UHGV virus genome: UHGV-0057547
Strand: one strand, 5' to 3'
Source of the DNA: a virus
DNA: 64,000 nucleotides
Shown here: positions 19,595 through 55,385 of the stretch, piece after piece
Numbering within the stretch: the first letter of the stretch is position 1
Layout of the letters: each line of letters begins with the position of its first letter
Program-made: the position numbers and the translations under genes
Notes under the pieces: model-generated
What the model saw: only the letters and a program-made list of their open reading frames with translations
Database searches by the model: none
Told to the model about the DNA's origin: nothing

Positions 19595-20686
19595 CTATTT
19601 ATTATAATTTTTATATTCTTTAATTAGCTTCTTTGTATAATTAAATAAACTATTCGAATCTTTTCTTTGTATTTCAACATCATACCATTCCATAGGTGTT
19701 CTTGAATAAAAATCCCCAAACCCTCCTGGTGCAACATGACCATTATGTACTCCCATACCTATTTCAGTACCATAATATATGCATATATCATTATTTTTAA
19801 AAGAGAACATTATTTCTAAAGCTTGTTTTATTTTATTAATATCATGATTAAAACTTACAGATATTCTCGTTTGGTCGTGATTGTCTAAAAATATAACAGA
19901 CCTTTCTTCATTATTGTCAATAACTAAATGTTGTTTATTTATAACTGTGTTTTTAACCCATCCAGCTTCCTGGAAGTTAAATGTCTTCATACCTGTTTCT
20001 TTTGCATACATATCACTTATTTCAAAACTATCCCATGCTTCTCCTACAATATATGCGTTAGGTTTTATTGAATAAACCATATTACAGAACCATTTCCAAA
20101 ATTCAATCTTATCACCACTTGCAAAAATAATAGCATCAAGTCTAAAACCATCTACCTTATGTTCTAATAACCAAAATCTAATTACACTTTCAATCATTTC
20201 TCTAACTTTTTCAGATTGATTATTAAGTTGTGGCATTTGCTCTGACCAAGGGGCTAGATACCATTTTTTATTACTATAGCAGTATTTCCATTGGTTATTT
20301 ATTTGAACATCAGACCAAAAGTAGCAGTCATTTTTTCCTTCTATACTCTCTTGAAATAATTTATGATGATATCCGGTATGACATAAAACTAAATCTAATA
20401 ATACTTCTAAACCATTTTCATGTGCCTTTTTAATAAAATTATCAAAATCTTCTAAAGTCCCATATTGTTCTCTAATTTTAAAATATGAATCTACAGAATA
20501 CCCATGTTCATTATCAGATGGATGAATAGGAGTTAACCATAAAGTTGTAACTCCCAATTCTACAAAATAAGGTATTTTTTCAGTTAAATCTTTAAAATCT
20601 CTACAAAATGATGGAAAATATATTTCATATATCACTCTTCTTTTTTTATTCATTTTTTTCTTCACACTCCTTGATATAATCTTCAT
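19595..20686 (-). CDS. glycoside hydrolase family 13 (alpha-amylase catalytic domain)-like protein
   Basis: GH13 regions: DGFRLDAIIF (region II), IVGEAWD (region III), FLDNHDQTR (region IV). Confidence 0.6.
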   Translation of the reverse strand: MKIISRSVKKKMNKKRRVIYEIYFPSFCRDFKDLTEKIPYFVELGVTTLWLTPIHPSDNEHGYSVDSYFKIREQYGTLEDFDNFIKKAHENGLEVLLDLVLCHTGYHHKLFQESIEGKNDCYFWSDVQINNQWKYCYSNKKWYLAPWSEQMPQLNNQSEKVREMIESVIRFWLLEHKVDGFRLDAIIFASGDKIEFWKWFCNMVYSIKPNAYIVGEAWDSFEISDMYAKETGMKTFNFQEAGWVKNTVINKQHLVIDNNEERSVIFLDNHDQTRISVSFNHDINKIKQALEIMFSFKNNDICIYYGTEIGMGVHNGHVAPGGFGDFYSRTPMEWYDVEIQRKDSNSLFNYTKKLIKEYKNYNK

Positions 20687-24988: not shown

Positions 24989-26605
24989 TTATTTATTACT
25001 TTCATAAAAAACTTTATATAATTTATATGTCTCATATAAATCACGCTTACTAATTGTTTCCATAGGGCTATGCATGGATGCCGTAGGCACACCAGCATCC
25101 ATTGTTTCCATTCCTCTTATTCCAAAGAACATAGCAACTGTTCCTCCACCAGTTTCACTAACTTTAGTTGTATCAACTTGATATTTTACATTATTATCAA
25201 CACATAAACCTTTAATATATTCTCTCATCTCTATACTTGCATCATTTCCTCGTTTTAATCCAGTAAATGGTACTAATGCAACACCATTACCACATACTGC
25301 TTTGGCACTATCTTCAAAGTGACTACTATAATTACTATCAAATCCACCAGTTACATCTGCACTAATTACCTTTGTATTTCTCATAAACTCTCTAGTCAAT
25401 AATGTATGTCCATTTGCTAAAATAAGAAATATATCATCTATAAATTGAGTTTCAGCACCACTCATTTGTCCACTTCCAGTTTCTTCATAAGCAGTGAATA
25501 AAGCTATCTTTGTTCTTTTATTAGGCTTGCTAGTTAATATAGCTTCTAATTCAGCATAAGCACAACTTTTATCATCATGTCCATAACCTAATAATAAATC
25601 TTTATCTAATCCCATTTCTAAAGTTCTAAAATAAGGTACAAAACTTAAATCAGCTAATTCAAAATTCTCTTTTGTTATTCCATATTCTTTTTCTAGCATT
25701 TCAAATAATTCTTCTTTATTTCCATTACTCATTCTTACTAATAATTTATCATAAGACAAGTCTTTCACTTCTTTTCTACCTCTTAAATGAGGCAATAAAC
25801 TAGTTATAGAAAATAAATATCCTTTTTCTCCAGTATTTATATATTTGATTTCATCATCTACTTTTATTTTTCCAACCATTACAAAAGGTCTATCCAACCA
25901 TAATTGTGGTATTATTCCTCCATATGGTTGTGTTTTTATAAATGTTCCATCATCATTAGATACAAATGGTTCACCTACTATAACATCTAATCTAGGACTA
26001 TCAATATGACTTACTATTAAATTAGCACCTTCTGATATATCTTCACCTACTTCTACTAAAGCTATCAATTTATCTCTAAATTCAAATATTAATTTATCTC
26101 CTACATTAAAGTGTTTATAATTATAAGTTTTATATCCCACATCTTCTGCTTTATCTTTTATATATTTTAATACTTGTGTTTCATGTAAGCCTTCTTCTAA
26201 TAAATATTTATATTCATCTATAAAATTATCCTCTTCATTATTATCTTGTGCCTTATATAATTCTTCTAATAAAACATCTAATACATCTCTATCTTTTTCT
26301 TCATCAATTATTTCTTTTAAGGTATCATATTTTATATCAGGAAGCCATTTTGAATACATAACATTATCTCTAAATATTATTTTTATTCTTGATTTTTTAG
26401 CTATAATAGATTTTGTGTTTAATTCATAAATCTTTTTCCATTGAGTTGGCAATTCTCTTCCATTCGACCAATAATAACCCAATTCTTCTAATGATATTAA
26501 TACTTGCTCAATAACTTCTTTATCATCATTAACTTCTATTATAACTTGTTTATCATTTTTTTTACTTAATTCCTCTATTAAACTTGTTATCCTTCTTATA
26601 CTCAT
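24989..26605 (-). CDS. M18/M42-like aminopeptidase-family protein with N-terminal extension
   Basis: C-terminal GGGTVAMFFGIRGMETMDAGVPTASMHSPMET resembles the C-terminal zinc-ligand region of the aspartyl aminopeptidase family. Confidence 0.4.
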   Translation of the reverse strand: MSIRRITSLIEELSKKNDKQVIIEVNDDKEVIEQVLISLEELGYYWSNGRELPTQWKKIYELNTKSIIAKKSRIKIIFRDNVMYSKWLPDIKYDTLKEIIDEEKDRDVLDVLLEELYKAQDNNEEDNFIDEYKYLLEEGLHETQVLKYIKDKAEDVGYKTYNYKHFNVGDKLIFEFRDKLIALVEVGEDISEGANLIVSHIDSPRLDVIVGEPFVSNDDGTFIKTQPYGGIIPQLWLDRPFVMVGKIKVDDEIKYINTGEKGYLFSITSLLPHLRGRKEVKDLSYDKLLVRMSNGNKEELFEMLEKEYGITKENFELADLSFVPYFRTLEMGLDKDLLLGYGHDDKSCAYAELEAILTSKPNKRTKIALFTAYEETGSGQMSGAETQFIDDIFLILANGHTLLTREFMRNTKVISADVTGGFDSNYSSHFEDSAKAVCGNGVALVPFTGLKRGNDASIEMREYIKGLCVDNNVKYQVDTTKVSETGGGTVAMFFGIRGMETMDAGVPTASMHSPMETISKRDLYETYKLYKVFYESNK

Positions 26606-30766: not shown

Positions 30767-30950
30767 TTTCCATCAACCCCTAATTCTTTTAAAATTTTAT
30801 TTTCTAATTCATTAGTTGTCATTTCTAGTATCCCATTTATCAAGTGACCGAACATTCTAGTTTTTTCTAATTCTATTATTTCTACTGAAACATCATTACC
30901 TTTTCTAATAAATATTACTTTACAATCTTTTTCAGCTATCACACAATAAC

Positions 30951-31072
30951 GTTTCAGTGCTTGTTACAATTTCAGAACAAGCTTCCCTATTCATCGTATC
31001 CTCTTTCCTTTTTACAAAGTACTCAAGTTTGTATGATACTCCCAGGGCGTAAATTCGGAACTGAACTTTCCT
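30951..31072 (-). ncRNA. conserved structured RNA element (copy 2), directly downstream of promoter 31094..31122
   Basis: Minus-sense AUAGGAAAGUUCAGUUCC-GAAUUUACGCCCUGGGAGU-(UACAAACUUGAGUACUUUGUA hairpin)-GAGGAUACGAUGAAUAGGGAAGCUUGUUCUGAAAUUGUAACAAGCACUGAAAC. Confidence 0.6.
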
Positions 31073-31093
31073 ATTTATTTCTTATTTACTTAT

Positions 31094-31122
31094 ATTATAC
31101 TACTACTCTTATTAAAAGTCAA
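31094..31122 (-). promoter_or_regulatory. consensus promoter cassette driving the RNA element
   Basis: TTGACT (31117-31122), 17 nt, TATAAT (31094-31099). Confidence 0.6.
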
Positions 31123-36681: not shown

Positions 36682-37257
36682 TTAAGATAATTCTAAACAT
36701 TTATGTTTTATTTTTTTAACCGCTCTATTGAAAATTTGATTTACATTTTGTTTTGATAAATGTAATATTTTACCCATTTCCTCAAACGTATAACCAGCTA
36801 AGAACAATCTTATAATTTGTCCACTTCTTTCACTTATTAAATCAGCATATTTTATTATTTCTTTAACTAAATCTTTTTCTATAATTTTATCTTCCAAATT
36901 ATAATCATATTCTATTAATTCTAATAATGTTTTACTTTCTTCTTCATGAACAATTTTTCTATCCAAACTATCAACAGTTGCATCTCCTCTTCTTTTCATT
37001 GTATTTTTATTTTGATAAAATTTTTTACAACTCCATTTAATAGAATTTTCTATAAAAACAGATTTTCCCATTACTTCATCTAATTTATCTAGGTCTTTTA
37101 ATAGATTTAATATTATTTCTGATTTCAAATCTTCAAGACCAAAATAATTATTCTTTGCATTGTTATAATAAAACATTCTTGCATATTTATCTATCAGCAT
37201 TTCATAATCATTTATTATGTTAACCTTTAATTCATTATTCATATACCCCATCTCCAT
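36682..37257 (-). CDS. sigma-70-family RNA polymerase sigma factor (phage-encoded, small)
   Basis: Region 2-like DYEMLIDKYARMFYYN; region 4 HTH LHLSKQNVNQIFNRAVKKIK. Confidence 0.6.
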   Translation of the reverse strand: MEMGYMNNELKVNIINDYEMLIDKYARMFYYNNAKNNYFGLEDLKSEIILNLLKDLDKLDEVMGKSVFIENSIKWSCKKFYQNKNTMKRRGDATVDSLDRKIVHEEESKTLLELIEYDYNLEDKIIEKDLVKEIIKYADLISERSGQIIRLFLAGYTFEEMGKILHLSKQNVNQIFNRAVKKIKHKCLELS

Positions 37258-37294
37258 TTATAATTTTTATTTTTCTAATATGTATTCTACTATA

Positions 37295-37406
37295 GTTTCA
37301 ATGCTTACATTTAAGCTTCCCTATTCAACATATCCTCTTTCACCTAATGGCTACTTGAGTTTGTGTGATACTCCCAGGGCGTAAATTCGGGTTTGAACAT
37401 CCCTAC
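37295..37406 (-). ncRNA. conserved structured RNA element (copy 3), in the 5' leader of sigma factor gene 36682..37257
   Basis: GUAGGGAUGUUCAAACCC-GAAUUUACGCCCUGGGAGU...GGAUAUGUUGAAUAGGGAAGCUUAAAUGUAAGCAUUGAAAC. Near-identical to the copy at 41340..41451. Confidence 0.6.
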
Positions 37407-37443
37407 ATATTAATTTTTTATTTTTATTATCTTATTTACTTAT

Positions 37444-37472
37444 ATTATACTATTGCTATTATTAAAAGTCAA
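37444..37472 (-). promoter_or_regulatory. consensus promoter cassette
   Basis: TTGACT (37467-37472), 17 nt, TATAAT (37444-37449). Confidence 0.6.
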
Positions 37473-38132: not shown

Positions 38133-38918
38133 CTAATCAGCAAATTTAAAAGATACTTTCATATCAGCTTTAGTACAACTAGCTTGAGCATTATATTTTT
38201 TATTTAATAGATTATATTTTATTGTATATTTGTTACAACCTAAAACTTTACAAGCTATTAAATAATTGTCAAATACTTTATGATAACCATCATTATTAAA
38301 TACAATTACTTCTTTATCTTCTATTTTATCACTTTCATCTTCATAATCATATTCATTAATACTTAATTGTTCTTTATTGTTTATTAATTCTTTTCTTAAT
38401 TTCATTATTAATTGTTGCACTCTTTGTTTACTTATTTCCATTTTACAACCTATTTCCTCATAGTTATAACCATTCATAAGCATTATAACTATATCATATA
38501 ATCTTTTATCTTTTAAATTTTTTATATAATTTAATATTTCATTTCTATAAATACCTGTAAAATCATCTAATCTTCCAACAGTTCTATCTCTAACTTTTTC
38601 GGTATCTTCATCCATACCTTCATTTTCATGAACTTTTCTTTCTCCACCTTTTTGAACATATTTATATAAATCATTATTAACAAAACTTAACATTTTATTT
38701 CTAATTGATTTTACAGCCAAAGTACTAAATTTTCCTTTACTTTCATCATAAGTTTTAATGACATTATATAAAGTTATCATTCCAATTTGTTTTAAATCAG
38801 CATATACATCATATTCAGATACAGTTGTATAGAAAAATCTTTGTATTACCCAATCCACTAAACTTTCATTTTCTATTAACATTTTTTCTATTCTTATTTC
38901 ATTTTCAAATTTTTCCAT
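38133..38918 (-). CDS. sigma-70-family sigma factor
   Basis: Region 2 DWVIQRFF...ADLKQIGMITLYNVIKTYDESKG; region 4 MEISKQRVQQLIMKLRKEL. Confidence 0.6.
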   Translation of the reverse strand: MEKFENEIRIEKMLIENESLVDWVIQRFFYTTVSEYDVYADLKQIGMITLYNVIKTYDESKGKFSTLAVKSIRNKMLSFVNNDLYKYVQKGGERKVHENEGMDEDTEKVRDRTVGRLDDFTGIYRNEILNYIKNLKDKRLYDIVIMLMNGYNYEEIGCKMEISKQRVQQLIMKLRKELINNKEQLSINEYDYEDESDKIEDKEVIVFNNDGYHKVFDNYLIACKVLGCNKYTIKYNLLNKKYNAQASCTKADMKVSFKFAD

Positions 38919-39016: not shown

Positions 39017-39763
39017 TTATTCCCTCCATTCAAAATTTATTTTCTTATTTAAAGTTTTACTTTTAGCACTTTTCCTTAATCCTTGACATATTTTCCTAAT
39101 AGAGTTCTTATCAATGCCTAAATCTTCACTAGCCATTTGAAGATTATCATAATTTTTATAAAATTTTCCATCTATAAAAGCTACAACACTTCCTTTACTT
39201 TTCCTAATTTCATGTTTAATATTAAATTTTTCTTTTAAGTTTTCTTTTATAAAAAACATTTTTTTATTTATAATACGATAATTATTATTTAATATTTCAC
39301 TTATTTCTTTTCCGTTGTATCCTCTTAGCATATAGTAAAATATTATATAATAATCTCCACCTAAATTCTTTACATATTGTAAATACATTTCAATGTATAA
39401 AATTGTTTCGTCATCATAATCACCCAACATATCTTCAAGAGTTAACTTTTCATCTTCTTTAGTTTGTATATCTTCATTAAGTGATAAAATATTTTTATTA
39501 TTTATTGTATGTTTTTTATTAATATAGGTTATAATAGAATTGTAAATGCATTTACTACAATAACAAATAAAGGATTTCTCATTGTTTATATTGTCAATAG
39601 GTCTATAAGTCTTATATGCTTTTACAATAGCTATTCTACCTTCTTGTAATAAATCATCATAATCATTGCTATAAATGAAATTTGAAAAATGTCTTTTGAT
39701 ATTTGATTTAATCAGATATTCATATTTGATTACAACTTCATTTATATCAATTGCGTTCTCCAT
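39017..39763 (-). CDS. sigma-70-family sigma factor-like protein
   Basis: Region 2-like DDLLQEGRIAIVKAYKTYRP; C-terminal basic HTH-like region. Confidence 0.5.
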   Translation of the reverse strand: MENAIDINEVVIKYEYLIKSNIKRHFSNFIYSNDYDDLLQEGRIAIVKAYKTYRPIDNINNEKSFICYCSKCIYNSIITYINKKHTINNKNILSLNEDIQTKEDEKLTLEDMLGDYDDETILYIEMYLQYVKNLGGDYYIIFYYMLRGYNGKEISEILNNNYRIINKKMFFIKENLKEKFNIKHEIRKSKGSVVAFIDGKFYKNYDNLQMASEDLGIDKNSIRKICQGLRKSAKSKTLNKKINFEWRE

Positions 39764-39870: not shown

Positions 39871-40185
39871 TTATAAATAAGTTATTTCTAATCCTAAATT
39901 TTTAGCTACTCCTATAATCTGATATACTTCTTCATCCCTTTCAGGAAGTACATAAACTTCATCAGCAAAGGTTAATATTTTTAATGAATAATTTATCAAC
40001 TCATCCTTATCAATGTCCTTAGAAAGCCAACCAACGGCTTTCAATGGACTTATATATAATATATGTTTCCTTCCATTCTTTAAATCATCCCTAATCAATT
40101 CTCTAATTAAGGATTCAATTGCTTTTTCTTGTCCTTCCGTATTACTACCAGTAATAAATATAACCTTATAATCATCTAACTTCAT
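39871..40185 (-). CDS. possible nucleoside 2-deoxyribosyltransferase-like (DUF4406-like) protein
   Basis: KVIFITGS...ILYISPL...ADEVYVLPE pattern. Confidence 0.3.
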   Translation of the reverse strand: MKLDDYKVIFITGSNTEGQEKAIESLIRELIRDDLKNGRKHILYISPLKAVGWLSKDIDKDELINYSLKILTFADEVYVLPERDEEVYQIIGVAKNLGLEITYL

Positions 40186-40197
40186 TATATCATCCCC

Positions 40198-40848
40198 TTA
40201 TAAATTAGTAGTTTTGTATCTAATTAATTTCATTGCCATGTCGTCAAGTTGTTGAAATGATTCTCTTAATGTTTTAGAAAAATATTGTTCTTTACCTAAT
40301 TCCTTTTCTCCTAATTGAACAGTGCTACCACTAAAATCAGTTTCTTCAAGTTCTTCATTTTCATTTAAACAGTTTACCATTTTATTATATGAAACATCAG
40401 TCATAATTAATACTTCTTTATATTGTATTTCAAATACTAATTTCCATTTTCTTTTATCCTCAGTTCCATTTTTATTAATTTTAAGTTTTAGGTAATCACT
40501 TACTTTATCTCTTATTGGTAATATTTCTATTAAACTTCTTTCAACAGATTTTTGTATATTATTGTATGTTCTATATATATTACTATCATTTTCCATATTC
40601 CTTATTAACCATTTTTCATGAGCTTTAACATGACATACGCCAAACATTATATTAAGTGAATGGTATAGCCATTTATTTTCTTTTTTACTTTGGTTTATTA
40701 TTATTCTTATTTTTGTTTTAAAACTATTTTCTTTTGCTATTCTTCTTGTGCCTTGATTACCATGTTGTTTATATTCTTCATAACTATCTAATTTTCTATA
40801 ATCTTTTCTTTCTTTTAAATTTACATTAGTTTCTAATTCTTTTTTCAC
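40198..40848 (-). CDS. hypothetical protein
   Basis: 216-aa ORF; no recognisable motif. Confidence 0.4.
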   Translation of the reverse strand: MKKELETNVNLKERKDYRKLDSYEEYKQHGNQGTRRIAKENSFKTKIRIIINQSKKENKWLYHSLNIMFGVCHVKAHEKWLIRNMENDSNIYRTYNNIQKSVERSLIEILPIRDKVSDYLKLKINKNGTEDKRKWKLVFEIQYKEVLIMTDVSYNKMVNCLNENEELEETDFSGSTVQLGEKELGKEQYFSKTLRESFQQLDDMAMKLIRYKTTNL

Positions 40849-40878
40849 AATATCTTCTCCCCTTTTTATAATTTATTT

Positions 40879-41256
40879 TTATTTTTTACTTTTACCTTTT
40901 CCTTTTAATTCGGATTCTTTTTCTTTTTCAGCTTTTTTTGATTTCTTAAGTTCTTCAAAATAAGTTGGTAATATTTGTTTCATTTTTTTTCTAAATTCTT
41001 TTGCAAAATATTCTTTAATTTCTTTAACTTCTTTTTCTACCTCTTTAGGAATTTCATCACTTACATCAATTTCATTTAATATACTTAAATGCAATTTTCC
41101 AAAGTCATTATTATATCTTGCACTTTCGGCTCTAGTTTCGCTAAATCTAACTAGATATTTGTTTGTGTATTCCTCATTGAAACAATATTTATATGCATCA
41201 ACTTGTCTGTCAACAAAGTTATCTAATTTTTCTTTATCACTTTTTTTCATAATCAT
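40879..41256 (-). CDS. hypothetical highly charged protein
   Basis: 125 aa, Lys/Glu-rich; downstream of RNA element copy 4. Confidence 0.4.
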   Translation of the reverse strand: MIMKKSDKEKLDNFVDRQVDAYKYCFNEEYTNKYLVRFSETRAESARYNNDFGKLHLSILNEIDVSDEIPKEVEKEVKEIKEYFAKEFRKKMKQILPTYFEELKKSKKAEKEKESELKGKGKSKK

Positions 41257-41339
41257 CTCTCCCTTTTTATAATTTTTTATATTTATTTTAATACTTGATT
41301 GTTATATTTGTATTATTCTTCTTCTTAGCTTATCGGTTT

Positions 41340-41451
41340 GTTTCAATGCTTACATTTAAGCTTCCCTATTCAACATATCCTCTTTCACCTAATGGCTACT
41401 TGAGTTTGTGTGATACTCCCAGGGCGTAAATTCGGGTTTGAACATCCCTAC
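41340..41451 (-). ncRNA. conserved structured RNA element (copy 4), in the 5' leader of gene 40879..41256
   Basis: Near-identical to copy 3. Promoter 41489..41517 immediately upstream. Confidence 0.6.
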
Positions 41452-41488
41452 ATATTAATTTTTTATTTTTATTATCTTATTTACTTAT

Positions 41489-41517
41489 ATTATACTATTG
41501 CTATTATTAAAAGTCAA
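41489..41517 (-). promoter_or_regulatory. consensus promoter cassette
   Basis: TTGACT (41512-41517), 17 nt, TATAAT (41489-41494). Confidence 0.6.
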
Positions 41518-41621
41518 GTATTATTTTTATCTTATTTATTCGTCTACTTAGTTTCATGTTTGTTTTAGCATATGTTACATTTGTACGTAATCCATTTTTT
41601 AAATATAGAAGACTACTATCA

Positions 41622-41786
41622 TGTTTCAGTGCTTGTTACACTTGTATGGAAAGACTACTAAAAAGACAATGGAGTTTCAGTGCTTTGACAAGCTTCCCTG
41701 TTCATCGTGTTCTTTTTCACTTTATATAAGCTACTCAAGTTTTTATAACACTCCAAGGGCGTAAATTCGGAACTGAACTTTCCTAC
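41622..41786 (-). ncRNA. conserved structured RNA element (copies 5 and 6; internally duplicated 3' module), located 47 nt downstream of the tnpB stop codon with no promoter of its own. Candidate omegaRNA-like RNA
   Basis: Same AUAGGAAAGUUCAGUUCC-GAAUUUACGCCCUUGGAGUG-...-GAACACGAUGAACAGGGAAGCUUG core, then two GCACUGAAAC modules. Positionally equivalent to a TnpB omegaRNA (3' of tnpB, same strand). Confidence 0.5.
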
Positions 41787-41832
41787 ATACCGAATATATC
41801 TTGTTGGTGATTATTATTCGGTTTTATTATAT

Positions 41833-43014
41833 TTAATATTGTGCTAAGTTTATAGAGGCATTTAAGTCTCTATCCATTGTGTGTCCACATTCAGGACAAG
41901 TAAAAGTTCTATCTTTCAATTTTAATCTTTCTTTTCCTATTCTTATATATCCACATTTACTACAAGTTTGTGAACTAGGATACCATCTGTCAGCTACTAC
42001 TAATTCAATTCCATAGTCATCACATTTATAAGTTAATTGATTTTTGATTTCATTAAATCCTTGTTGCCCTATTGATTTACTTAGATGTTTATTTTTCATC
42101 ATCCCTTTTACGTTTAAATTTTCAATAACTACTCTTTGTGGTTTCTTTTCTACTATTTGATGTGTCATTGTATGTCTATAATTATTTCTTATACCTGCAA
42201 TTCTATGTTGTAATTTAAGTATTTGTTTTTCTAATTTTATTATATTATTAGTCTTATGATATTTCTTTCCTTGTCTATTCATTTCATATTTTCTACTCAC
42301 TTGTCGTTGCATACGTTTTAATTTCTTTTCTAATTTTCTAACATGAGCAGTTTTATTAATGTTTTTATATACTGTGCCATCACTACATATTGCTAAATCT
42401 TTTATTCCTAAGTCTATTCCTAATGATGTTGGATTTAATTCAGGTTTTTCTTTTATTTCTCTTAAGCCTACACTAATGCTCCAATATATCCCATTGTATG
42501 TGACTCTAGGATTTACATATTTAATTTTAGGATACATTTCGCTTTCTTCATAAGGTATATAACCTTTTCTAGCTAATTTGATTGTTCCTATCTTAGATAT
42601 TTTTACTGTATCTTCAGTGATTTTTATACGTTGATAATGTGGTGCAAAAGCTGGAGTTGTTTTATTTCTACTTTTAAATTTAGGATAACCAACATCAGGT
42701 CTTTTGAAAAAATTTTTAAAAGCATTACAACTATCTGTATATGCAATTACTAGTGCCATTGAATCACAATCTTTAAGCCATTCATTACCTTCTTGATTTT
42801 TGTAAGCAGTGAAATATTTGCTTAATCCTTTTGATGGTATAAACTTTTCTTTTTTAGGAATACTTTCATCTTCATATCTACTTTTTTGAAATGCTAAACA
42901 CCAATTATATACATGTCTTGCACATCCTGCTTGAAAGAACATTTGTTTTTCTTGTTGTTTTGTTGGATATAACCTAACTTTGAAAGTTCTAATCTCCATT
43001 TTCAATTCCCCCAT
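41833..43014 (-). CDS. tnpB: TnpB (IS200/IS605 OrfB-type RuvC-like nuclease), catalytic residues intact
   Basis: FKVRLYPTKQQ N-terminus; RuvC-I GIDLGIKDLA; RuvC-II VVIENLNVKGMMKN; zinc finger CSKCGY...CPECGH; RuvC-III MDRDLNASINLA. Confidence 0.85.
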   Translation of the reverse strand: MGELKMEIRTFKVRLYPTKQQEKQMFFQAGCARHVYNWCLAFQKSRYEDESIPKKEKFIPSKGLSKYFTAYKNQEGNEWLKDCDSMALVIAYTDSCNAFKNFFKRPDVGYPKFKSRNKTTPAFAPHYQRIKITEDTVKISKIGTIKLARKGYIPYEESEMYPKIKYVNPRVTYNGIYWSISVGLREIKEKPELNPTSLGIDLGIKDLAICSDGTVYKNINKTAHVRKLEKKLKRMQRQVSRKYEMNRQGKKYHKTNNIIKLEKQILKLQHRIAGIRNNYRHTMTHQIVEKKPQRVVIENLNVKGMMKNKHLSKSIGQQGFNEIKNQLTYKCDDYGIELVVADRWYPSSQTCSKCGYIRIGKERLKLKDRTFTCPECGHTMDRDLNASINLAQY

Positions 43015-43032
43015 TTATCTTTATTTACTTAT

Positions 43033-43061
43033 ATTATACTATCGTCCTTATTAAAAGTCAA
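43033..43061 (-). promoter_or_regulatory. consensus promoter cassette driving tnpB
   Basis: TTGACT (43056-43061), 17 nt, TATAAT (43033-43038). Confidence 0.6.
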
Positions 43062-43070
43062 TAAATTTTG

Positions 43071-43100
43071 AAAAAAACTGAGAAGAAAAATTTTCTTCTC
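43071..43100 (-). terminator. rho-independent terminator
   Basis: Minus-sense hairpin GAGAAGAAAAUUUUUCUUCUC followed by UUUUUUU. Confidence 0.55.
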
Positions 43101-43390
43101 TATATTAAATCATATAGTTCTATACATATTCTAGAAAGTAAATTATCTATTTCTATCAAATTGTCGGTACAAACAACATCCGTGTATTTCATTAAATTGG
43201 TAAGTGCATTTAAAACTCCTTTAATTTCTTCTTTTGATTTAAAATTTATTATTCCATTTTTAACTCTATTGTATAAAAATAATAAATAATATTCATCATC
43301 ACTCTTGAATCCTTTACCATACTTATTTAATGTTTTCTTTATGGCATCCTCTAGCATTTCACTTTCAACTAAGTTTAAATTATATTTCAT
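43100..43390 (-). CDS. hypothetical protein
   Basis: 96-aa ORF; no recognisable motif. Confidence 0.4.
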   Translation of the reverse strand: MKYNLNLVESEMLEDAIKKTLNKYGKGFKSDDEYYLLFLYNRVKNGIINFKSKEEIKGVLNALTNLMKYTDVVCTDNLIEIDNLLSRICIELYDLI

Positions 43391-43514
43391 AATTCCCCAA
43401 CTCCTTTTTATTTTTTTATTTTATTTACTTATATTGTACTATTACTTTTATTAAATGTCAAGTATTTTTGAAAAAAACTGAGAAGAAATTTTTCTTCTCT
43501 AAATTAAGTATTTA

Positions 43515-43799
43515 TTAAAATGTCTTAATTAAGAATACTATCATTATTACTACTCCTATGCCCCCTAAAATTGCTCCCATTTTACTAAATTTAATTTGTT
43601 CTTCCATTGCCATTATTAATCTTTCTTTGTCCTCTTGTACTGTAAATCCATCTTTTCTCATTTCCTCTATAAGCGTATCTATATTGGCTGAGTATTCATT
43701 GTAATATGCTCTATCTCTAATGTAATTTAGAATAGGTAAAAAAGCTAAACAAATACCAAATACTTCTAATGCTCTACTTATTAATAATGATAAATTCAT
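43515..43799 (-). CDS. small membrane protein
   Basis: Hydrophobic N- and C-terminal segments. Confidence 0.4.
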   Translation of the reverse strand: MNLSLLISRALEVFGICLAFLPILNYIRDRAYYNEYSANIDTLIEEMRKDGFTVQEDKERLIMAMEEQIKFSKMGAILGGIGVVIMIVFLIKTF

Positions 43800-43940
43800 A
43801 AAATACCTCCAATTTAAAGTCCTTAAGACTATTTATTTTTTTTATTTTGTTTTTTTATATTTATTATACTATTATTATATCATGTAGTTTATGTTATGTC
43901 AAGCATTTTTGAAAAAACTGAGAAGAAAATTTTTCTTCTC

Positions 43941-44537
43941 TTATAAACTTAGATTTAATAAATTAACTTGTTCTATTATTTCTTTATTATCAGATAAAAA
44001 AACTTTTTTTCTTCTATCGTACAATACTACATGACTACCACATTTCTTGCAACTAGCACCTTTGAAGGCTTGCTTTTTGCTTTCTGTCAATTTACTAACA
44101 GTTCCTATTATTCCATCTTTTGGACAGATTACAAAATATTTATCATTTCTTTCTTCATATTTCAATTTTACTTTCAGACTATCAGATATTTCTAAATACT
44201 TACAAACTTCTTTCCATCTATCATCATGATTACAATTATCATCGTGTAATTCATTAGCTATATAATGTGCTAATTCATGTTTTAATACGTATTCAAGTTT
44301 TTCATTTGTTGCATTTCTAAAAAATGATTTAGATATTTGCATGTCACAAGGGACTATTTTTTTAGAGTTTCTTGTAAGATAAAATCTATAACAAGCAACT
44401 TTCTTTTTAAATCTTCCATTAAGATTTATATCTTTTTCAAATAATGGTATTTCATTTCCTGTTTTCTTATTAAACATTTCTATGTTTTCATTTAAAAATA
44501 CTCTTACTTCATTAACATTTTTTATTCTTCTTTCCAT
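43941..44537 (-). CDS. SprT-like zinc metalloprotease with C-terminal zinc ribbon
   Basis: HELAHYIANELHDDNCNHDDRW (HExxH plus downstream His); CKKCGSH. Confidence 0.55.
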   Translation of the reverse strand: MERRIKNVNEVRVFLNENIEMFNKKTGNEIPLFEKDINLNGRFKKKVACYRFYLTRNSKKIVPCDMQISKSFFRNATNEKLEYVLKHELAHYIANELHDDNCNHDDRWKEVCKYLEISDSLKVKLKYEERNDKYFVICPKDGIIGTVSKLTESKKQAFKGASCKKCGSHVVLYDRRKKVFLSDNKEIIEQVNLLNLSL

Positions 44538-44650
44538 TCTTCATTCCCCCTAAAATATTTTTATTATTTATTTCTTTTATACTTATATTATATACTAGAT
44601 TTTATCTATTGTCAAGTATTTTTGTAAAAACTGAGAAGAAAAAATCTTCT

Positions 44651-45238
44651 CTATTCAACTTCAACTTCTATTTTTTTAAAAAAATCTATCATTTCTTTTT
44701 CGTATTTATTGAAAAGTCTGACTGCTTTTTTATCTGCTATTTTTTCACATTCGATATTCCTATAGTGTTCCATTTGCATCTCACCAATTAACCAAGTATT
44801 TATTTCATATTCCTTTTCACATTCAAAATATAATTTATTATATCCATGTTTATCAAGCGACCTATTTAGTGTTATCATATGCCCTATTTCATGTAATATA
44901 GAAACCATGCAATAAACTTGAAAAAAATTCATTTCATATTTTTTCATTATGTAATTGTAATTAAAACCATAATGCTTTAAATAATCCACAAAATATTCAT
45001 GCTGTCTAATTATACTTTCTCTTTCGGTATAAACATTTTCAGGAACATATAACAAACTATATCTATCAACTTTTTCTTGTCCTCCACATGCAAAAGATTT
45101 TTTTGAATATTTTTGTATGCAATAAGGTATTCCTTTTTTCAATTCTTTTTTCTCTATAAAAAAATCAAATATTGAATTCATAAAATCTTCTGTGATGTCA
45201 ATATATTTTCTTTTTATTAAATCACTTTTAAGTTTCAT
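44651..45238 (-). CDS. HEXXH metallopeptidase (ImmA/IrrE-like)
   Basis: ILHEIGHMITLN. Confidence 0.45.
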   Translation of the reverse strand: MKLKSDLIKRKYIDITEDFMNSIFDFFIEKKELKKGIPYCIQKYSKKSFACGGQEKVDRYSLLYVPENVYTERESIIRQHEYFVDYLKHYGFNYNYIMKKYEMNFFQVYCMVSILHEIGHMITLNRSLDKHGYNKLYFECEKEYEINTWLIGEMQMEHYRNIECEKIADKKAVRLFNKYEKEMIDFFKKIEVEVE

Positions 45239-45264
45239 TTTTTATTTCCCCCTTTATACTATAT

Positions 45265-45293
45265 ATTATATATTAAGTTTTATATATTGTCAA
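45265..45293 (-). promoter_or_regulatory. sigma-A-type promoter (TTGACA-17-TATAAT) for gene 44651..45238
   Basis: TTGACA 45288-45293, 17-nt spacer, TATAAT 45265-45270. Confidence 0.5.
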
Positions 45294-45302
45294 TCACTTT
45301 TG

Positions 45303-45331
45303 AAAAAAACTGAGAAGAAAAAATTCTTCTC
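45303..45331 (-). terminator. rho-independent terminator, 3' of RNA element copy 7
   Basis: Minus-sense GAGAAGAAUUUUUUCUUCUC followed by AGUUUUUUUC. Confidence 0.55.
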
Positions 45332-45384
45332 TTTTAAAAAAAATTTTCTTTAATAAAATCTTTTATTTCAATTAGAATTACTCC

Positions 45385-45498
45385 GTTTCAATACTTGTTA
45401 TCAAGCTTCCCTATTCAACGTATCCTCTTCCCCTCTTATGAGGTACTCAAGTTTATATGATACTCCAAGGGCGTAAATTCGGAACTGAACTTTCCTAT
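45385..45498 (-). ncRNA. conserved structured RNA element (copy 7), a stand-alone unit flanked by its own promoter (45518..45546) and terminator (45303..45331)
   Basis: AUAGGAAAGUUCAGUUCC-GAAUUUACGCCCUUGGAGUAUC...GGAUACGUUGAAUAGGGAAGCUUGAUAACAAGUAUUGAAAC. Terminator about 45 nt downstream; a second promoter then drives the next gene. Confidence 0.6.
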
Positions 45499-45517
45499 TT
45501 ATTTCTTATTTACTTAT

Positions 45518-45546
45518 ATTATACTATTTTTACTGTTGAATGTCAA
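45518..45546 (-). promoter_or_regulatory. promoter cassette driving RNA element copy 7
   Basis: TTGACA 45541-45546, 17 nt, TATAAT 45518-45523. Confidence 0.6.
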
Positions 45547-45657
45547 GTATTATTTTTAAAAACTGGGAAGAAAAATTTTCTTCCCTTGATTGTTTTCGCA
45601 CAAAAGTAGGCTACGTCAGCACAAAAGTGGGCGACCCTATATTTTATTCCAATTTAA

Positions 45658-46236
45658 TTATTCCAATTTTTTAATCATATAGTGCGTAATTTTTCTTTTT
45701 CCTTTTTTCTTTCTTTTTAAATCATATCCATGCTCTTTTAATATTTTTTCTAAAGTGGGTAAACCTATTAATCTATTTCTGTTATCCCTAAGGTTATTTT
45801 TAATAATTATATCATTAAAAATAATATCTCTAGTAATCCATTTATTAAGTAGATTATCTTCAATGGAAAGGTCAATTTTTATATGTTTATGTTTTCTATG
45901 AATAACACTAAGATGACAATGTATACATAATGTTTTATAAGTATAAAACAAGTGTTTTCCTAATACTTTTTCTTCTATGTTTTTCAACTCTAATTTTGTA
46001 TAATTATCTATTGTTTTATATTCTTCTAGTCCTAACTCAATTAAAGTATCTTTTACCATATTAGCAAATGGATAAATGTGATGAACTTGTAAATCTTCAA
46101 TTCCACCGCATTGTTCACATTTATTCTTTTTAACTAACTTTACAAACTTATACCAAACTTTTATCCTTATATAATTGTTTAATGTTTGTTTTCTTTTTTC
46201 ATTATTTAACATTCCTTTTTTAATTATAATATTCAC
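45658..46236 (-). CDS. HNH endonuclease
   Basis: CEQCGG...LQVHHIYPF...CIHCHLSVIH. Confidence 0.65.
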   Translation of the reverse strand: MNIIIKKGMLNNEKRKQTLNNYIRIKVWYKFVKLVKKNKCEQCGGIEDLQVHHIYPFANMVKDTLIELGLEEYKTIDNYTKLELKNIEEKVLGKHLFYTYKTLCIHCHLSVIHRKHKHIKIDLSIEDNLLNKWITRDIIFNDIIIKNNLRDNRNRLIGLPTLEKILKEHGYDLKRKKKGKRKITHYMIKKLE

Positions 46237-50815: not shown

Positions 50816-50842
50816 ATTATTTTTTGCTTCTACTGTCAATAG

Positions 50843-50952
50843 GTTTCAGTGCTCATTAGTAAGCTTCCCTGTTCAACGTGTTCTCTTTCGTTTTAAACTA
50901 CTCAAGTTTTTTACAACACTCCAAGGGCGTAAATTCGGAACTGAACTTTCCT
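50843..50952 (-). ncRNA. conserved structured RNA element (copy 8)
   Basis: Promoter TTGACATTATATATAAGCTAGTATATAAT immediately upstream. Element ends GCACUGAAAC about 30 nt before the next ATG. Confidence 0.55.
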
Positions 50953-51045
50953 ATTTATATTATATACTAGCTTATATATAATGTCAACTGAAAACTTAAA
51001 AATAAATTTTAAATTTTCTCACTGAGGATATTATTAAATATCCTC

Positions 51046-54756: not shown

Positions 54757-55142
54757 CTCCTTTATATATTTGATTATATTATACTTAACATATTATTAAA
54801 AGTCAATAAATACTCATAAATATATTTAATTTTCCATAAAAATATATATCTCTGAGCCATTTAAATGGATTTTAAGCTTGTTATAACTACTTAATGGATA
54901 AACTATTCATTAAGTTATAAACTCATATTTAAATTTAATTCTTGTCAATTCTGTTTAAAAATAGGCATAAAAAAAATCCTCTACCATAATAGTAGAGGAT
55001 TAATTAGTTTCTAATAATAAAGTCCCTTCTGATTTTATTTTGTTACTTCCATAAGTATCTCTTATAGAACTCATATTTTTTCCTTATTTATTTCTTTAAA
55101 TACTTCTTCATTTTCCTTTCTATCAGGGTGAAACTTCATAGC

Positions 55143-55254
55143 GTTTCAATGCTTGTAACAAGCTTCCCTATTCAACGTGTTCTTTTTCACTTTATAAGCT
55201 ACTCAAGTTTTTGTAACACTCCCAGGGCGTAAATTCGGAACTGAACTTTCCTAC
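55143..55254 (-). ncRNA. conserved structured RNA element (copy 9)
   Basis: Promoter 55270-55320 upstream. GUAGGAAAGUUCAGUUCC-GAAUUUACGCCCUGGGAGUG...GAACACGUUGAAUAGGGAAGCUUGUUACAAGCAUUGAAACGC. Followed only by tiny ORFs (21 and 23 aa). Confidence 0.55.
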
Positions 55255-55385
55255 ATGTTATTTTTAATTTTTTATTTTATTTACCTATATTATACTGCTA
55301 TTATTATTAAAAGTCAATAAATATTTTCATTTTTTTATTTAATTTTCACAAAACTTTTTAACTTTCAGCAATAACTGAGGATTAA

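What the first reader, a model, noticed from the sequence alone, without database searches (positions are those of the whole stretch)
41622..43061. Intact TnpB with a copy of a genome-wide repeated structured RNA in its 3'UTR: candidate phage TnpB/omegaRNA-like system with dispersed, promoter-driven scaffold copies
Gene 41833..43014 is an IS605-type TnpB with intact RuvC-I/II/III residues and zinc finger. It has no tnpA partner and is driven by the phage's own promoter cassette, so it looks domesticated. Forty-seven nt after its stop, on the same strand, lies a 165-nt copy of an RNA element that recurs at 7 other loci in this window. That position is where a TnpB omegaRNA scaffold is encoded. 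This copy alone lacks its own promoter and has a duplicated 3' module ending GCACUGAAAC twice. The seven other loci each sit directly behind a strong consensus promoter, and each is followed by a different sequence after the conserved ...YUGAAAC 3' end. That is the arrangement expected if one TnpB were served by several independently transcribed scaffold-plus-variable-3'-segment RNAs, or if the scaffold marks mRNA leaders for TnpB binding or processing. I do not know of a described case of a TnpB with a dispersed set of promoter-driven omegaRNA-like genes.
Basis: partly seen in the sequence, partly recalled or inferred. Interest (0 to 1): 0.9.

Follow-up and report, generated by a model that had tools for sequence, protein, structure and literature searches.

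The report
Phage TnpB with scattered guide RNAs
A large phage carries one transposon-type RNA-guided nuclease (TnpB) and eight copies of its already-known guide-RNA scaffold (RAGATH-18); seven are stand-alone genes whose guide ends match sister phages, so this looks like an RNA-guided weapon or gene drive between related phages, built from known parts in a new arrangement.

Summary
ORF 41833..43014 (-) is an intact TnpB. Its closest solved relative is ISFba1, an IS607-family TnpB (PDB 8IAZ, E 4e-68). The repeated RNA is Rfam RAGATH-18, with 8 hits, all on the gene strand. Ren et al. 2024 showed that RAGATH-18 is the guide-RNA (reRNA/omegaRNA) scaffold of exactly this TnpB family, so the protein-RNA link is already known. 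Stand-alone omegaRNAs that act in trans are also already described.

The context is the new part. Every viral TnpB at least 56% identical to this one sits next to a 3-8-repeat CRISPR-like array. In those loci the RAGATH-18 scaffold ends in an anti-repeat, which is the TranC-like tracr/crRNA split. Their spacers hit sister phages next to 5'-TTTA.

It also has seven fused single-guide copies. Six sit behind consensus promoters, and one forms its own promoter-to-terminator unit.

Comparison with four sister phages shows that each scaffold replaces the 5' part of a gene. Its guide is the remnant of that gene. Sisters that keep the intact gene carry the same sequence after a TTA-type motif (6 of 9 loci, P about 6e-7).

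Most likely function: trans-acting guides for cutting or converting co-infecting relatives. This is a new variant of a known kind.

The parts
43033..43061 (-). Phage consensus promoter driving tnpB (TTGACT-17-TATAAT)
   Evidence: 11/12 match. It belongs to a 26-copy, window-wide extended -10 family.
41833..43014 (-). tnpB, 393 aa, IS607-lineage (ISFba1-like) RNA-guided nuclease with RuvC D201/E298/D381 and the zinc ribbon intact
   Evidence: Pfam. PDB 8IAZ at E 4.1e-68 over residues 8-391. It is the only TnpB in the window (tblastn).
41674..41790 (-). TnpB-adjacent reRNA scaffold: a 5' hairpin whose loop forms a pseudoknot, the RAGATH-18 core (41694-41759), a mini-hairpin GCUU-GUCA-AAGC, then ACUGAAAC
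   Evidence: Rfam 68.4 bits. Own covariance model 134 bits. Covariation support.
41647..41673 (-). First guide/spacer (27 nt, TCCATTGTCTTTTTAGTAGTCTTTCCA)
   Evidence: No target was found.
41623..41646 (-). Array repeat R1 (TACAAGTGTAACAAGCACTGAAAC), a shortened homologue of the 36-nt repeats in sister loci
   Evidence: compared with the L001 repeats.
41586..41622 (-). Spacer (37 nt, ATGATAGTAGTCTTCTATAT...)
   Evidence: The length matches the 36-41-nt spacers of sister arrays. No target was found.
41551..41585 (-). Degenerate repeat R2 (TACAAATGTAACATATGCTAAAACAAACATGAAAC)
41320..41517 (-). Stand-alone copy c41362: promoter 41489-41517, scaffold 41340-41455, guide AAACCGATAAGCTAAGAAGA
   Evidence: It is identical to c37317 over exactly 178 nt, from the -35 hexamer to GAAAC.
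37275..37472 (-). Stand-alone copy c37317: promoter 37444-37472, scaffold 37295-37410, guide TATAGTAGAATACATATTAG. The guide is the last 9 codons of a small gene that is longer in L001.
45312..45546 (-). Stand-alone copy c45407 as a complete small-RNA unit: promoter 45518-45546, scaffold 45385-45502, guide GGAGTAATTCTAATTGAAAT, terminator 45312-45331. It replaces about 1 kb (3 genes) present in sisters.
   Evidence: A perfect 32/32 target follows ATTA in L075.
50823..50987 (-). Stand-alone copy c50865: promoter 50959-50987, scaffold 50843-50958, guide CTATTGACAGTAGAAGCAAA. It replaces a 36-nt leader, RBS and first 2 codons.
   Evidence: The target in L001/L078 follows GTTA, with 1 mismatch.
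55123..55317 (-). Stand-alone copy c55164: promoter 55289-55317, scaffold 55143-55258, guide GCTATGAAGTTTCACCCTGA. It truncates a J-domain gene, and the guide covers the HPD-motif codons.
   Evidence: A 24/24 target follows ACTA in L078.
30931..31122 (-). Stand-alone copy c30983: promoter 31094-31122, scaffold 30951-31078 (longer 3' hairpin), guide GTTATTGTGTGATAGCTGAA. It replaces about 62 codons of a gene that is intact in L077.
17514..17696 (-). Stand-alone copy c17556: extended -10 only (17675-17696), scaffold 17534-17652 with a compensated 3' hairpin AUUUA/UAAAU, guide GGAAAATGATAGTTTAGTAT
   Evidence: No empty allele was found.

Best explanation
This is a TnpA-less, phage-promoter-driven TnpB of the IS607/ISFba1 lineage with its RAGATH-18 guide RNA encoded just 3' of the gene. 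That much is shown by homology.

In this phage lineage the system no longer behaves like a transposon accessory. It behaves like a CRISPR-like nuclease aimed at related phages. Relatives carry a tracr-like scaffold plus mini-arrays whose spacers match sister phages next to 5'-TTTA.

The window keeps a decayed two-repeat array. It adds seven stand-alone single-guide genes, each with a promoter, a scaffold with a closing hairpin, AYUGAAAC, and then a guide.

The following steps are inferred. Each stand-alone RNA is transcribed on its own. It folds like the cognate scaffold and is loaded in trans by the single TnpB. Its roughly 20-nt guide is the remnant of the gene that the scaffold truncated. 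A co-infecting sister phage that still has the intact gene carries the same sequence directly after a TTA-type TAM, so it is cut. The phage's own copy follows ...GAAAC rather than a TAM, so it is spared. The break either destroys the rival genome or is repaired from the scaffold-bearing genome. Repair would spread the scaffold and the linked deletion, in the manner of homing or marker exclusion.
For: Identity.
- Pfam hits and PDB 8IAZ at E 4e-68, with the RuvC and zinc motifs kept.
- 8 RAGATH-18 hits above Rfam's cut-off.
- Ren et al. show that reRNA guides IS607 TnpB from an untranslated position 3' of the gene.
- In 60 of 72 viral TnpB-homologue loci a scaffold starts about 35 nt after the stop codon on the same strand.

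Scaffold integrity of the stand-alone copies.
- Across 31 distinct copies, 97.7% of cells are paired. 19 of 24 pairs show changes on both sides. 0 of 500 shuffles reach this, and slid controls give 37-53%.
- The 5-bp pseudoknot between the 5' hairpin loop GUUCAR and the 3' YUGAA is 94.7% paired, with C:G to U:A and A:U to G:C swaps.

Expression signals.
- 11-12/12 promoters, and a terminator closing the c45407 unit.

Clade function.
- All homologues at least 56% identical have 3-8-repeat arrays, and the scaffold tail is the reverse complement of the repeat.
- 8 of 8 distinct full-length protospacers lie in sister phage loci after TTTA. The background frequency of TTTA is 0.0196.
- Phages that carry a given spacer have their own protospacer mutated at positions 2 and 5. 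Three of the four phages examined that lack the spacer keep the perfect match.

Stand-alone guides.
- In sister phages that lack the scaffold, the guide-matching sequence follows ATTA, ACTA, GTTA, TTTA, ATTA, ATTA or TTTA. That is 6 of 9 loci with TTA, P 6e-7.
- Perfect matches exist for c45407 (32/32) and c55164 (24/24).
- Targeting is reciprocal. Sister guides hit the window at 30804, 36012, 43943 and 48463.
- No window guide has a second site in the window.
- Stand-alone omegaRNAs acting in trans are established.
Against: - There are no expression, binding or cleavage data. Everything is comparative.
- TTTA is inferred from relatives at 57-79% identity and from 9 partly non-independent loci. 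ISFba1-type TAMs are AGGAG/GAGGG.
- Two of the nine empty alleles have ATTG plus seed mismatches. These could be escape variants, or they could simply be non-targets.
- If AATA (3 sister loci, 2 contigs) is counted for c45407 instead of ATTA (1 sister), the TTA count falls to 5 of 9.
- The 3' flank is only about 22 nt, against about 50-64 nt in ISFba1, so competence for TnpB loading is assumed.
- The window's two array spacers and two stand-alone guides (c17556, c41362) have no target in any collection searched.
- Sister phages that appear to lack this TnpB type still keep the scaffolds. That fits relics as well as it fits function.
- How new scaffold-guide junctions form without a TnpA is unexplained.
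Confidence: 0.68

Rival explanations
1. Only the TnpB-adjacent RNA works. The seven dispersed copies are inert debris, either relics of past mini-element insertions or products of recombination between the phage's many repeated promoter cassettes. They are carried along without function.
For: - Sister contigs 159628, 160472 and 152729 keep such scaffolds although no type-1 tnpB was detected in them.
- c37317 and c41362 are an exact 178-nt duplicate, as recombination would give.
- The scaffolds sit at deletion junctions.
- Ren et al. report 36% of RAGATH-18 copies away from TnpB without assigning them a role.
Against: - Debris should decay. Instead all copies keep every helix and the pseudoknot, through compensatory changes.
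- They keep strong promoters.
- They end exactly at GAAAC.
- The guide side falls next to a TTA-type motif in empty alleles far more often than chance.
Confidence: 0.14
2. The scaffolds are cis-acting 5' leaders. TnpB binds or processes them to control the stability or translation of the downstream mRNA, giving temporal regulation of early genes.
For: - Six of the seven lie between a promoter and downstream coding sequence on the gene strand.
- TnpB is known to process its own transcript into omegaRNA (paper PMC10278001, listed).
Against: - c45407 is followed by a terminator and no gene.
- c55164, c30983 and c37317 are followed by truncated remnants of genes that are intact in sisters, so the scaffold destroyed the gene rather than regulating it.
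- At the same promoter, sisters have either the scaffold or a normal leader with RBS.
- 19 of the 26 consensus promoters have no scaffold.
Confidence: 0.06
3. The stand-alone scaffolds are decoys or hijackers. Either they soak up the TnpB of a competing phage or host, as RNA anti-CRISPRs do, or they re-arm a rival's TnpB with guides against the rival itself.
For: - Scaffolds persist in sisters with no detected cognate tnpB.
- Their guides match alleles of TnpB-bearing sisters, for example L076 (contig 160472) against the window at 30804 after ATTA, 23/23.
- Viral single repeat units acting as RNA anti-CRISPRs are a known precedent (review PMC11656645).
Against: - In this window the cognate TnpB is present, so self-use is the simpler reading.
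- A pure decoy would not need TAM-adjacent guides.
- Only parts of the sister contigs were read, so the absence of tnpB there is not proven.
Confidence: 0.07
4. This is ordinary transposon maintenance. TnpB and the scaffolds are parts of active IS607-type elements, and the guides only serve to re-cut the donor site after TnpA excision in the same genome (restorative homing).
For: - This is the canonical TnpB role (papers on selfish inheritance; review).
- A second TnpB type in sister L074 behaves this way. It is a clean insertion after AAGGGG with a flank-derived guide.
Against: - No TnpA was found in 41 ORFs, including all neighbours.
- The scaffolds are not simple insertions. They come with deletions of 36 nt to about 1 kb, or with diverged duplicates of the target gene end.
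- The inferred TAM is TTTA, not the AGGAG/GAGGG class.
- Relatives carry arrays with spacers against other phages.
Confidence: 0.05

Closest known systems
ISFba1-type IS607 TnpB with RAGATH-18-derived reRNA (Ren et al. 2024, Cell Res; PDB 8IAZ)
   Same: - Same protein family over full length (E 4e-68) and about 390 aa.
- Same RNA family (Rfam RF03064).
- The RNA is encoded 3' of the gene without overlapping it, and the guide is at the 3' end.
- A 5-bp pseudoknot links the 5' hairpin loop to the guide-proximal segment.
   Different: - Phage-borne and driven by a phage promoter.
- No TnpA found.
- The 3' flank is about 22 nt rather than about 50-64 nt.
- The inferred TAM is TTTA/TTA rather than AGGAG/GAGGG.
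- There is a vestigial repeat-spacer array and seven extra promoter-driven scaffold copies.
TranC, transposon-CRISPR intermediates (Jin et al. 2025, known here through review PMC13565253 and bioRxiv 10.64898/2026.03.27.714800, which reports a phage-borne CauTranC9)
   Same: - Relatives at 56-93% identity have a TnpB-sized effector and a scaffold ending in an anti-repeat.
- They have 36-37-nt repeats in 3-8 copies, no adaptation genes seen, a short T-rich motif, and spacers against phages.
- TranCs are reported to use both crRNA and reRNA.
   Different: - The window itself has the fused (single-guide) form plus only two decayed repeats.
- I could not compare sequences with published TranC clades, so membership in a named clade is untested.
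- Dispersed single-guide genes are not described in the texts I could read.
Stand-alone omegaRNAs acting in trans (Altae-Tran et al. 2021, as summarised in PMC10691335)
   Same: - Scaffold copies without an effector or transposase sit in the same genome as one effector locus.
- Each has its own flank-derived guide.
   Different: - Here they are in a phage, each behind a phage consensus promoter.
- They sit at gene-truncating junctions.
- Their guides match TAM-flanked alleles of sister phages.
- The biological role of the described stand-alone omegaRNAs was stated to be unknown.
[quoted passage not shown]
   Same: - Short arrays without cas adaptation genes in viral genomes.
- The spacers hit close relatives.
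- The proposed role is exclusion of co-infecting relatives.
   Different: - Those mini-arrays borrow the host's Cas proteins.
- Here the phage brings its own compact nuclease and scaffold, and part of the guide set is dispersed rather than arrayed.
Free-standing homing endonucleases of T-even phages (intronless homing and localized marker exclusion; review PMC13565253)
   Same: - The function is alike: cut the allele of a co-infecting relative, spare the phage's own allele through sequence difference, and spread the linked DNA through repair.
   Different: - Recognition here is RNA-guided and multiplexed from one nuclease gene.
- There is no homology to LAGLIDADG, GIY-YIG or HNH enzymes.

Membership tests
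IS607-family TnpB-reRNA (RAGATH-18) system | TnpB fold with HTH, RuvC and zinc-ribbon domains, homologous to ISFba1 | tested here: met
   Pfam PF12323, PF01385 and PF07282. PDB 8IAZ at E 4.1e-68, residues 8-391.
IS607-family TnpB-reRNA (RAGATH-18) system | RuvC catalytic D/E/D triad present | tested here: met
   D201 (GIDLG), E298 (VIENLN) and D381 (DRDLNA) align to identical residues of 8IAZ.
IS607-family TnpB-reRNA (RAGATH-18) system | RAGATH-18 motif directly 3' of tnpB, same strand, not overlapping the ORF | tested here: met
   Rfam hit at 41694-41759, 68.4 bits against a cut-off of 44.9. The scaffold starts 42 nt after the stop codon.
IS607-family TnpB-reRNA (RAGATH-18) system | Conserved 5' (about 37 nt) and 3' (about 50-64 nt) flanks with two pseudoknots | tested here: inconclusive
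   The 5' flank of about 30 nt is present, and one 5-bp pseudoknot is supported by covariation. The 3' flank is only about 22 nt. The second pseudoknot was not examined.
IS607-family TnpB-reRNA (RAGATH-18) system | TAM 5'-AGGAG or GAGGG | tested here: not met
   Protospacers of the clade's arrays follow TTTA in 8 of 8 cases. Stand-alone guide targets follow TTA in 6 of 9 cases. This is inferred from sequence, not measured.
IS607-family TnpB-reRNA (RAGATH-18) system | Serine-recombinase TnpA partner (80% of loci in Ren et al.) | tested here: not met
   No resolvase domain in TnpB or the 40 other window ORFs scanned, including all neighbours. About 35 small ORFs were not scanned.
IS607-family TnpB-reRNA (RAGATH-18) system | reRNA-guided, TAM-dependent dsDNA cleavage | not testable with these tools
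   Needs biochemistry.
TranC (transposon-CRISPR intermediate) | TnpB-like effector next to a CRISPR array | tested here: inconclusive
   The window has only two decayed repeats (41623-41646 and 41551-41585). Sister L001 (93% identity) has 3 clean repeats, and homologues at 56-79% identity have 3-8.
TranC (transposon-CRISPR intermediate) | Guide split into a tracrRNA (anti-repeat) and a crRNA | tested here: not met
   All 8 window scaffolds close the hairpin themselves, which is the fused form. The split is met in L001-L019, where the tail is the reverse complement of the repeat.
TranC (transposon-CRISPR intermediate) | Sequence membership in a published TranC clade | not tested
   The primary paper and its sequence tables were not available.
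Stand-alone omegaRNAs serving an effector in trans | Intact scaffold copies lacking an adjacent effector or transposase, in a genome that has a compatible effector | tested here: met
   Seven copies lie 0.3-24 kb from the single tnpB. Their structure is intact.
Stand-alone omegaRNAs serving an effector in trans | Loading and guiding in trans | not testable with these tools
   Needs RIP-seq or a cleavage assay.
Viral mini-arrays or guides for inter-virus competition | Guides match close relatives of the carrier virus and not the carrier itself | tested here: met
   Five window guides match sister contigs, two of them perfectly. None has a second site in the window. The clade's spacers behave the same way and show self-immunity mutations.

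The most novel reading that the evidence does not exclude
A family of roughly 150-200 kb phages runs a natural multiplex RNA-guided gene-drive and exclusion network.

- Promoter-plus-scaffold cassettes fuse to a gene at a TTA site and delete its 5' part. In two sister loci they instead keep a diverged, target-mismatched copy of the gene end upstream, like a recoded rescue.
- The remnant then serves as the guide against sisters that still have the intact gene.
- Within one lineage, with TnpBs 93% identical, the guide exists both fused (omegaRNA-like, dispersed) and split (tracr plus array). This catches the omegaRNA-to-CRISPR transition, or its reversal, in the act.
- Scaffolds retained by sisters that lack the nuclease may exploit the TnpB of the co-infecting rival.
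Probability: 0.35. Interest if true: 0.8.

Novelty: new variant of a known kind. Interest (0 to 1): 0.55.

Why it matters
The biological role of stand-alone omegaRNAs is an acknowledged open point, and TnpB's natural role outside transposon retention is barely documented.

Here the comparison of five sister phages gives concrete, testable targets. There are named guides, named alleles, an inferred TTA/TTTA motif, and reciprocal hits between phages. This would show a TnpB working as a phage-versus-phage weapon or drive.

The lineage also holds fused and split guide forms around nearly identical nucleases. That is useful material for working out how CRISPR arrays arose from omegaRNAs. The T-rich motif combined with a 393-aa nuclease and a scaffold of about 120 nt is also of practical interest for genome editing.

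The protein-RNA pairing itself is not a discovery.

Tried and rejected
- A megablast of 40000-46000 against GenBank phages found nothing. The best GenBank phage TnpBs are only about 50% identical and come from Staphylococcus Twort-like phages.
- I looked for second-site targets of the guides inside the window. There are none at up to 3 mismatches.
- I searched for targets of the window's array spacers. Spacer 41586-41622 has 0 hits in viral contigs and 0 in metagenomes. Guide 41654-41673 has two 20-mer hits in unrelated bacterial genomes. Neither has a TTTA flank or extends further, so I judged them chance.
- A metagenome scan with the c17556 guide returned only identical occupied alleles (L088, L089) and 20-22-nt matches without a TAM, also judged chance.
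- The search for related loci with the ligase next to c30983 returned nothing. I replaced it with a scaffold DNA pattern, which recovered the sister contigs.
- MFE folding of the TnpB-adjacent RNA is uninformative in this 24% GC sequence (z = 0.31). Covariation was used instead.
- I considered a classic IS607 TAM because AGGAG resembles the phage RBS. I rejected it for this TnpB type. It does fit the second TnpB type seen only in sisters.
- I considered a true CRISPR-Cas locus. No Cas1, Cas2 or Cas4 domains were found in the ORFs scanned.
- I could not obtain the TranC primary paper or the CauTranC9 sequence.
Full report
**What is there**

All genes in the window run on the minus strand. ORF 41833..43014 encodes a 393-aa protein. 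It carries the HTH_OrfB_IS605, OrfB_IS605 and Cas12f1-like TNB domains. Among solved structures it is closest, over its full length, to chain 8IAZ_A (E 4.1e-68). It is more distant from ISDra2 TnpB (E about 6e-42) and from LaTranC and Cas12f. The three RuvC motifs and both CxxC pairs of the zinc ribbon are conserved in that alignment. A consensus promoter (43061-43033) and an upstream terminator (43100-43080) bracket the gene's 5' side.

Rfam at curated thresholds finds eight RAGATH-18 matches at 57-69 bits against a cut-off of 44.9. All are on the gene strand, and one lies just 3' of tnpB. Aligning the copies with their flanks shows a common unit of about 116-128 nt. It consists of:
- a 5' hairpin (AGGRAWGUUCARWYCC);
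- the RAGATH-18 core;
- a short variable hairpin, GCUUx...xAAGC, which in one copy is compensated to AUUUA...UAAAU;
- an invariant AYUGAAAC, after which the copies share nothing.

The one exception is that copy 17534-17652 has only the extended -10 consensus and lacks a -35 hexamer.

**What it is**

Ren et al. 2024 (PMC11061315) found that RAGATH-18 co-occurs with IS607-family TnpBs of about 390 aa. They showed that the RNA, with conserved flanks, is encoded 3' of tnpB without overlapping it, that TnpB binds it, and that its variable 3' end guides TAM-dependent dsDNA cleavage. They solved the ISFba1 TnpB-reRNA-DNA structure. They also report that 36% of RAGATH-18 copies are not next to a TnpB. 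The PNAS survey of TnpB and Cas12 states that stand-alone omegaRNAs lacking effector and transposase exist, that they work in trans with a compatible effector, and that their role is unknown. So the protein-RNA pairing and the idea of dispersed guides are both known. RAGATH-18 has also been annotated in phage genomes before, without interpretation.

**Structure of the copies**

I built a covariance model from the eight copies. It recovers a scaffold about 35 nt after the stop codon in 60 of 72 viral loci that encode a TnpB homologue. On 31 distinct copies from the window and its relatives, 97.7% of cells in 24 pairs are standard pairs. 19 pairs show changes on both sides. No shuffle reaches this, and slid controls give 37-53%. 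This alignment was fitted to the model, which favours the structure somewhat.

A 5-bp long-range pairing between the loop of the 5' hairpin (UUCAR) and the guide-proximal YUGAA is 94.7% paired, with C:G to U:A and A:U to G:C exchanges. It resembles the essential PK2 described for ISFba1. The stand-alone copies are as intact as the TnpB-adjacent one.

**The 'duplicated 3' module' is a decayed array**

Sister contig IMGVR_UViG_3300045988_166499 (L001) is syntenic with the window at 90-94% nucleotide identity, and its TnpB is 93% identical. There the scaffold tail is not a hairpin. It is GCTTGTTATATTGTGTATTGCACTTGT. About 170 nt downstream, behind its own TTGACA-17-TACAAT, lie three 36-nt repeats (TAYAAGTGYAATATACAATATAACAAGYATTGAAAC) separated by 37-nt spacers. 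The repeat is the reverse complement of the scaffold tail followed by AUUGAAAC. In other words, the scaffold hairpin is split into an anti-repeat and a repeat.

Every viral homologue at 56-79% identity (L002-L019, L036/37, L042, L067) has such an array. Each has 3-8 repeats with a period of 73-77 nt, placed either after the scaffold or between the scaffold and tnpB. This is the tracrRNA/crRNA split that defines TranC intermediates, which are reported for IS605 and IS607 lineages and for one phage-borne example.

In the window the corresponding stretch is:
- scaffold end at 41674;
- a 27-nt spacer;
- a 24-nt repeat remnant (41646-41623);
- a 37-nt spacer;
- a degenerate 35-nt repeat (41585-41551).

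**What the clade's guides target**

I compared 79 distinct array spacers with all fetched loci. Eight have full-length protospacers, all in loci of sister phages and all preceded by TTTA. The background frequency of TTTA is 0.0196. For one spacer, the three phages that carry it have their own protospacer changed at positions 2 and 5. Three phages without the spacer keep TTTA plus a perfect match. This is the pattern of a nuclease aimed at relatives, with self-immunity through seed mismatches. It implies a T-rich TAM, unlike the AGGAG/GAGGG of ISFba1-type elements.

**What the stand-alone copies are**

A scan for the scaffold's conserved 21-mer recovered four further sister contigs (159628, 160472, 152729 and an 18-kb contig 99-100% identical to part of the window), each with several copies. 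Locus-by-locus comparison gives a consistent picture. At a given phage promoter, one phage has a normal leader, RBS and gene, while another has the scaffold followed by the 3' remainder of that gene.

- c50865 replaces 36 nt (leader, RBS and two codons).
- c30983 replaces about 62 codons.
- c55164 replaces the first 20 codons of a J-domain gene, so its guide encodes AMKFHPD.
- c45407 replaces about 1 kb with three genes. It is followed by 53 nt of remnant and a terminator, so it is a self-contained unit of about 200 nt.
- c37317 and its L001 counterpart share a promoter but join the downstream remnant at different points (9 versus 57 codons).
- c37317 and c41362 are identical over exactly 178 nt, from the -35 hexamer to GAAAC.

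In two sister loci (L076 5600-5900 and L001 4180-4760) the target gene's 3' end is present twice. A diverged copy with mismatches in the target lies upstream of the cassette. A wild-type-like copy lies downstream as the guide.

In the phages that lack a given scaffold, the guide-matching sequence is preceded by ATTA, ACTA, GTTA, TTTA, ATTA, ATTA or TTTA, and in two cases by ATTG. That is 6 of 9 with TTA (P 6e-7) and 7 of 9 with TA. If the AATA allele is counted for c45407 instead of ATTA, the count is 5 of 9. Matches are perfect for c45407 (32/32 in L075) and c55164 (24/24 in L078). Sister guides hit the window in return at 30804, 36012, 43943 and 48463. No window guide has a second site inside the window.

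**Mechanism**

What is shown:
- the family assignment;
- intact catalytic motifs;
- intact scaffolds;
- promoters and one terminator;
- guide-target relations with sister phages;
- a shared T-rich flank.

What is inferred:
- the seven RNAs are made and loaded by the single TnpB;
- they cut TTA-flanked intact alleles of co-infecting relatives;
- the phage's own copies are protected because GAAAC stands where the TAM would be;
- the outcome is exclusion of the rival or conversion of its allele.

This works like intronless homing or marker exclusion by free-standing homing endonucleases, and like viral mini-arrays, but with the phage's own RNA-guided nuclease.

**What does not fit or is open**

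- No TnpA was found, so the origin of new scaffold-guide junctions is unexplained. One possibility is transposition followed by promoter-promoter recombination. Another is random deletions filtered by drive. Neither can be distinguished here.
- Sisters 159628 and 160472 lack tnpB at the orthologous site. None of 159628, 160472 or 152729 contains a 29-mer conserved among type-1 tnpB genes, yet they keep type-1 scaffolds. At least two of them (160472 and 152729), and the 18-kb contig L074, carry a second TnpB only 43% identical. In L074 it behaves as a classic IS607-type insertion after AAGGGG.
- Four of the window's guides or spacers have no detectable target.
- The ATTG alleles may be TAM escapes or simply non-targets.

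**Verdict**

These are IS607 TnpB with RAGATH-18 reRNA, stand-alone omegaRNAs, and TranC-like relatives. The new elements are:
- the phage setting;
- the T-rich inferred TAM;
- the coexistence of fused dispersed guides and split arrays around near-identical nucleases;
- the evidence that the dispersed guides point at sister phages.

I rate it a new variant of a known kind, with moderate to good interest.

Noticed in passing
window 1-64000 (e.g. 43033-43061, 43080-43100): Almost every small gene is bracketed by the same two cassettes. One is an extended promoter, TAGTATAATATAAGTAAATAAG, with 26 copies, all on the minus strand, against 0.05 expected by chance. The other is a near-identical terminator, GAGAAGAAAAATTTTCTTCTC followed by a T-run. 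These repeats are likely substrates for the deletions and duplications seen between sister phages.
   Followed up: partly
L074 3250-5100 versus window about 18700-19160: A sister contig 99-100% identical to window 15.4-31 kb carries a second TnpB (43% aa identity) with its own, different scaffold. It is inserted cleanly between AAATAAGGGG and AGTGATGT, which is the RBS of the next gene. This is a classic IS607-like TAM (AAGGGG) with a flank-derived guide. The window has the empty site.
   Followed up: partly
L018, L019, L036 versus L016, L017, L042 (protospacer near L018 9053-9089): Phages carrying the spacer ACGATAGATT... have their own protospacer changed to ATGACAGATT... (positions 2 and 5). 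Phages lacking the spacer keep TTTA plus a perfect match. This looks like self-immunity by seed mutation.
   Followed up: yes
L076 5600-5900; L001 4180-4760: In two sister loci the cassette sits inside the 3' end of a gene that is present twice. A diverged copy that mismatches the target lies upstream and keeps the ORF complete. A wild-type-like copy lies downstream and serves as the guide. The layout resembles synthetic drives with a recoded rescue copy.
   Followed up: partly
window 3032-4564 and 4986-6668: DNA polymerase III alpha is split into two ORFs, PHP plus NTPase domains and finger plus HhH domains, separated by about 420 nt. An intervening element or a natural split was not examined.
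   Followed up: no
window 36682-37257, 38133-38918, 39017-39763: Three sigma-70-like ORFs lie close together, and the last also has a NUMOD1 domain. The first lies directly downstream of stand-alone copy c37317.
   Followed up: no
window 10995-12854, 19595-20686, 24989-26605, 20646-22067: The phage encodes cellular-type enzymes: an FtsH-like AAA+/M41 protease, an alpha-amylase-family protein and an M18 aminopeptidase. ORF 20646-22067 has an I-HmuI NUMOD-like domain and may be a homing endonuclease.
   Followed up: no
window 55075-55142: The remnant of a J-domain (DnaJ-like) gene follows copy c55164. Sister contig 166499 (L078 2920-3100) has the intact gene with its HPD motif.
   Followed up: partly
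L085 1480-2050; L081 6050-6420: Sisters 159628 and 160472 lack tnpB at the orthologous site but keep one or two promoter-plus-scaffold units there. This is consistent with loss of tnpB by recombination between the directly repeated promoters.
   Followed up: partly
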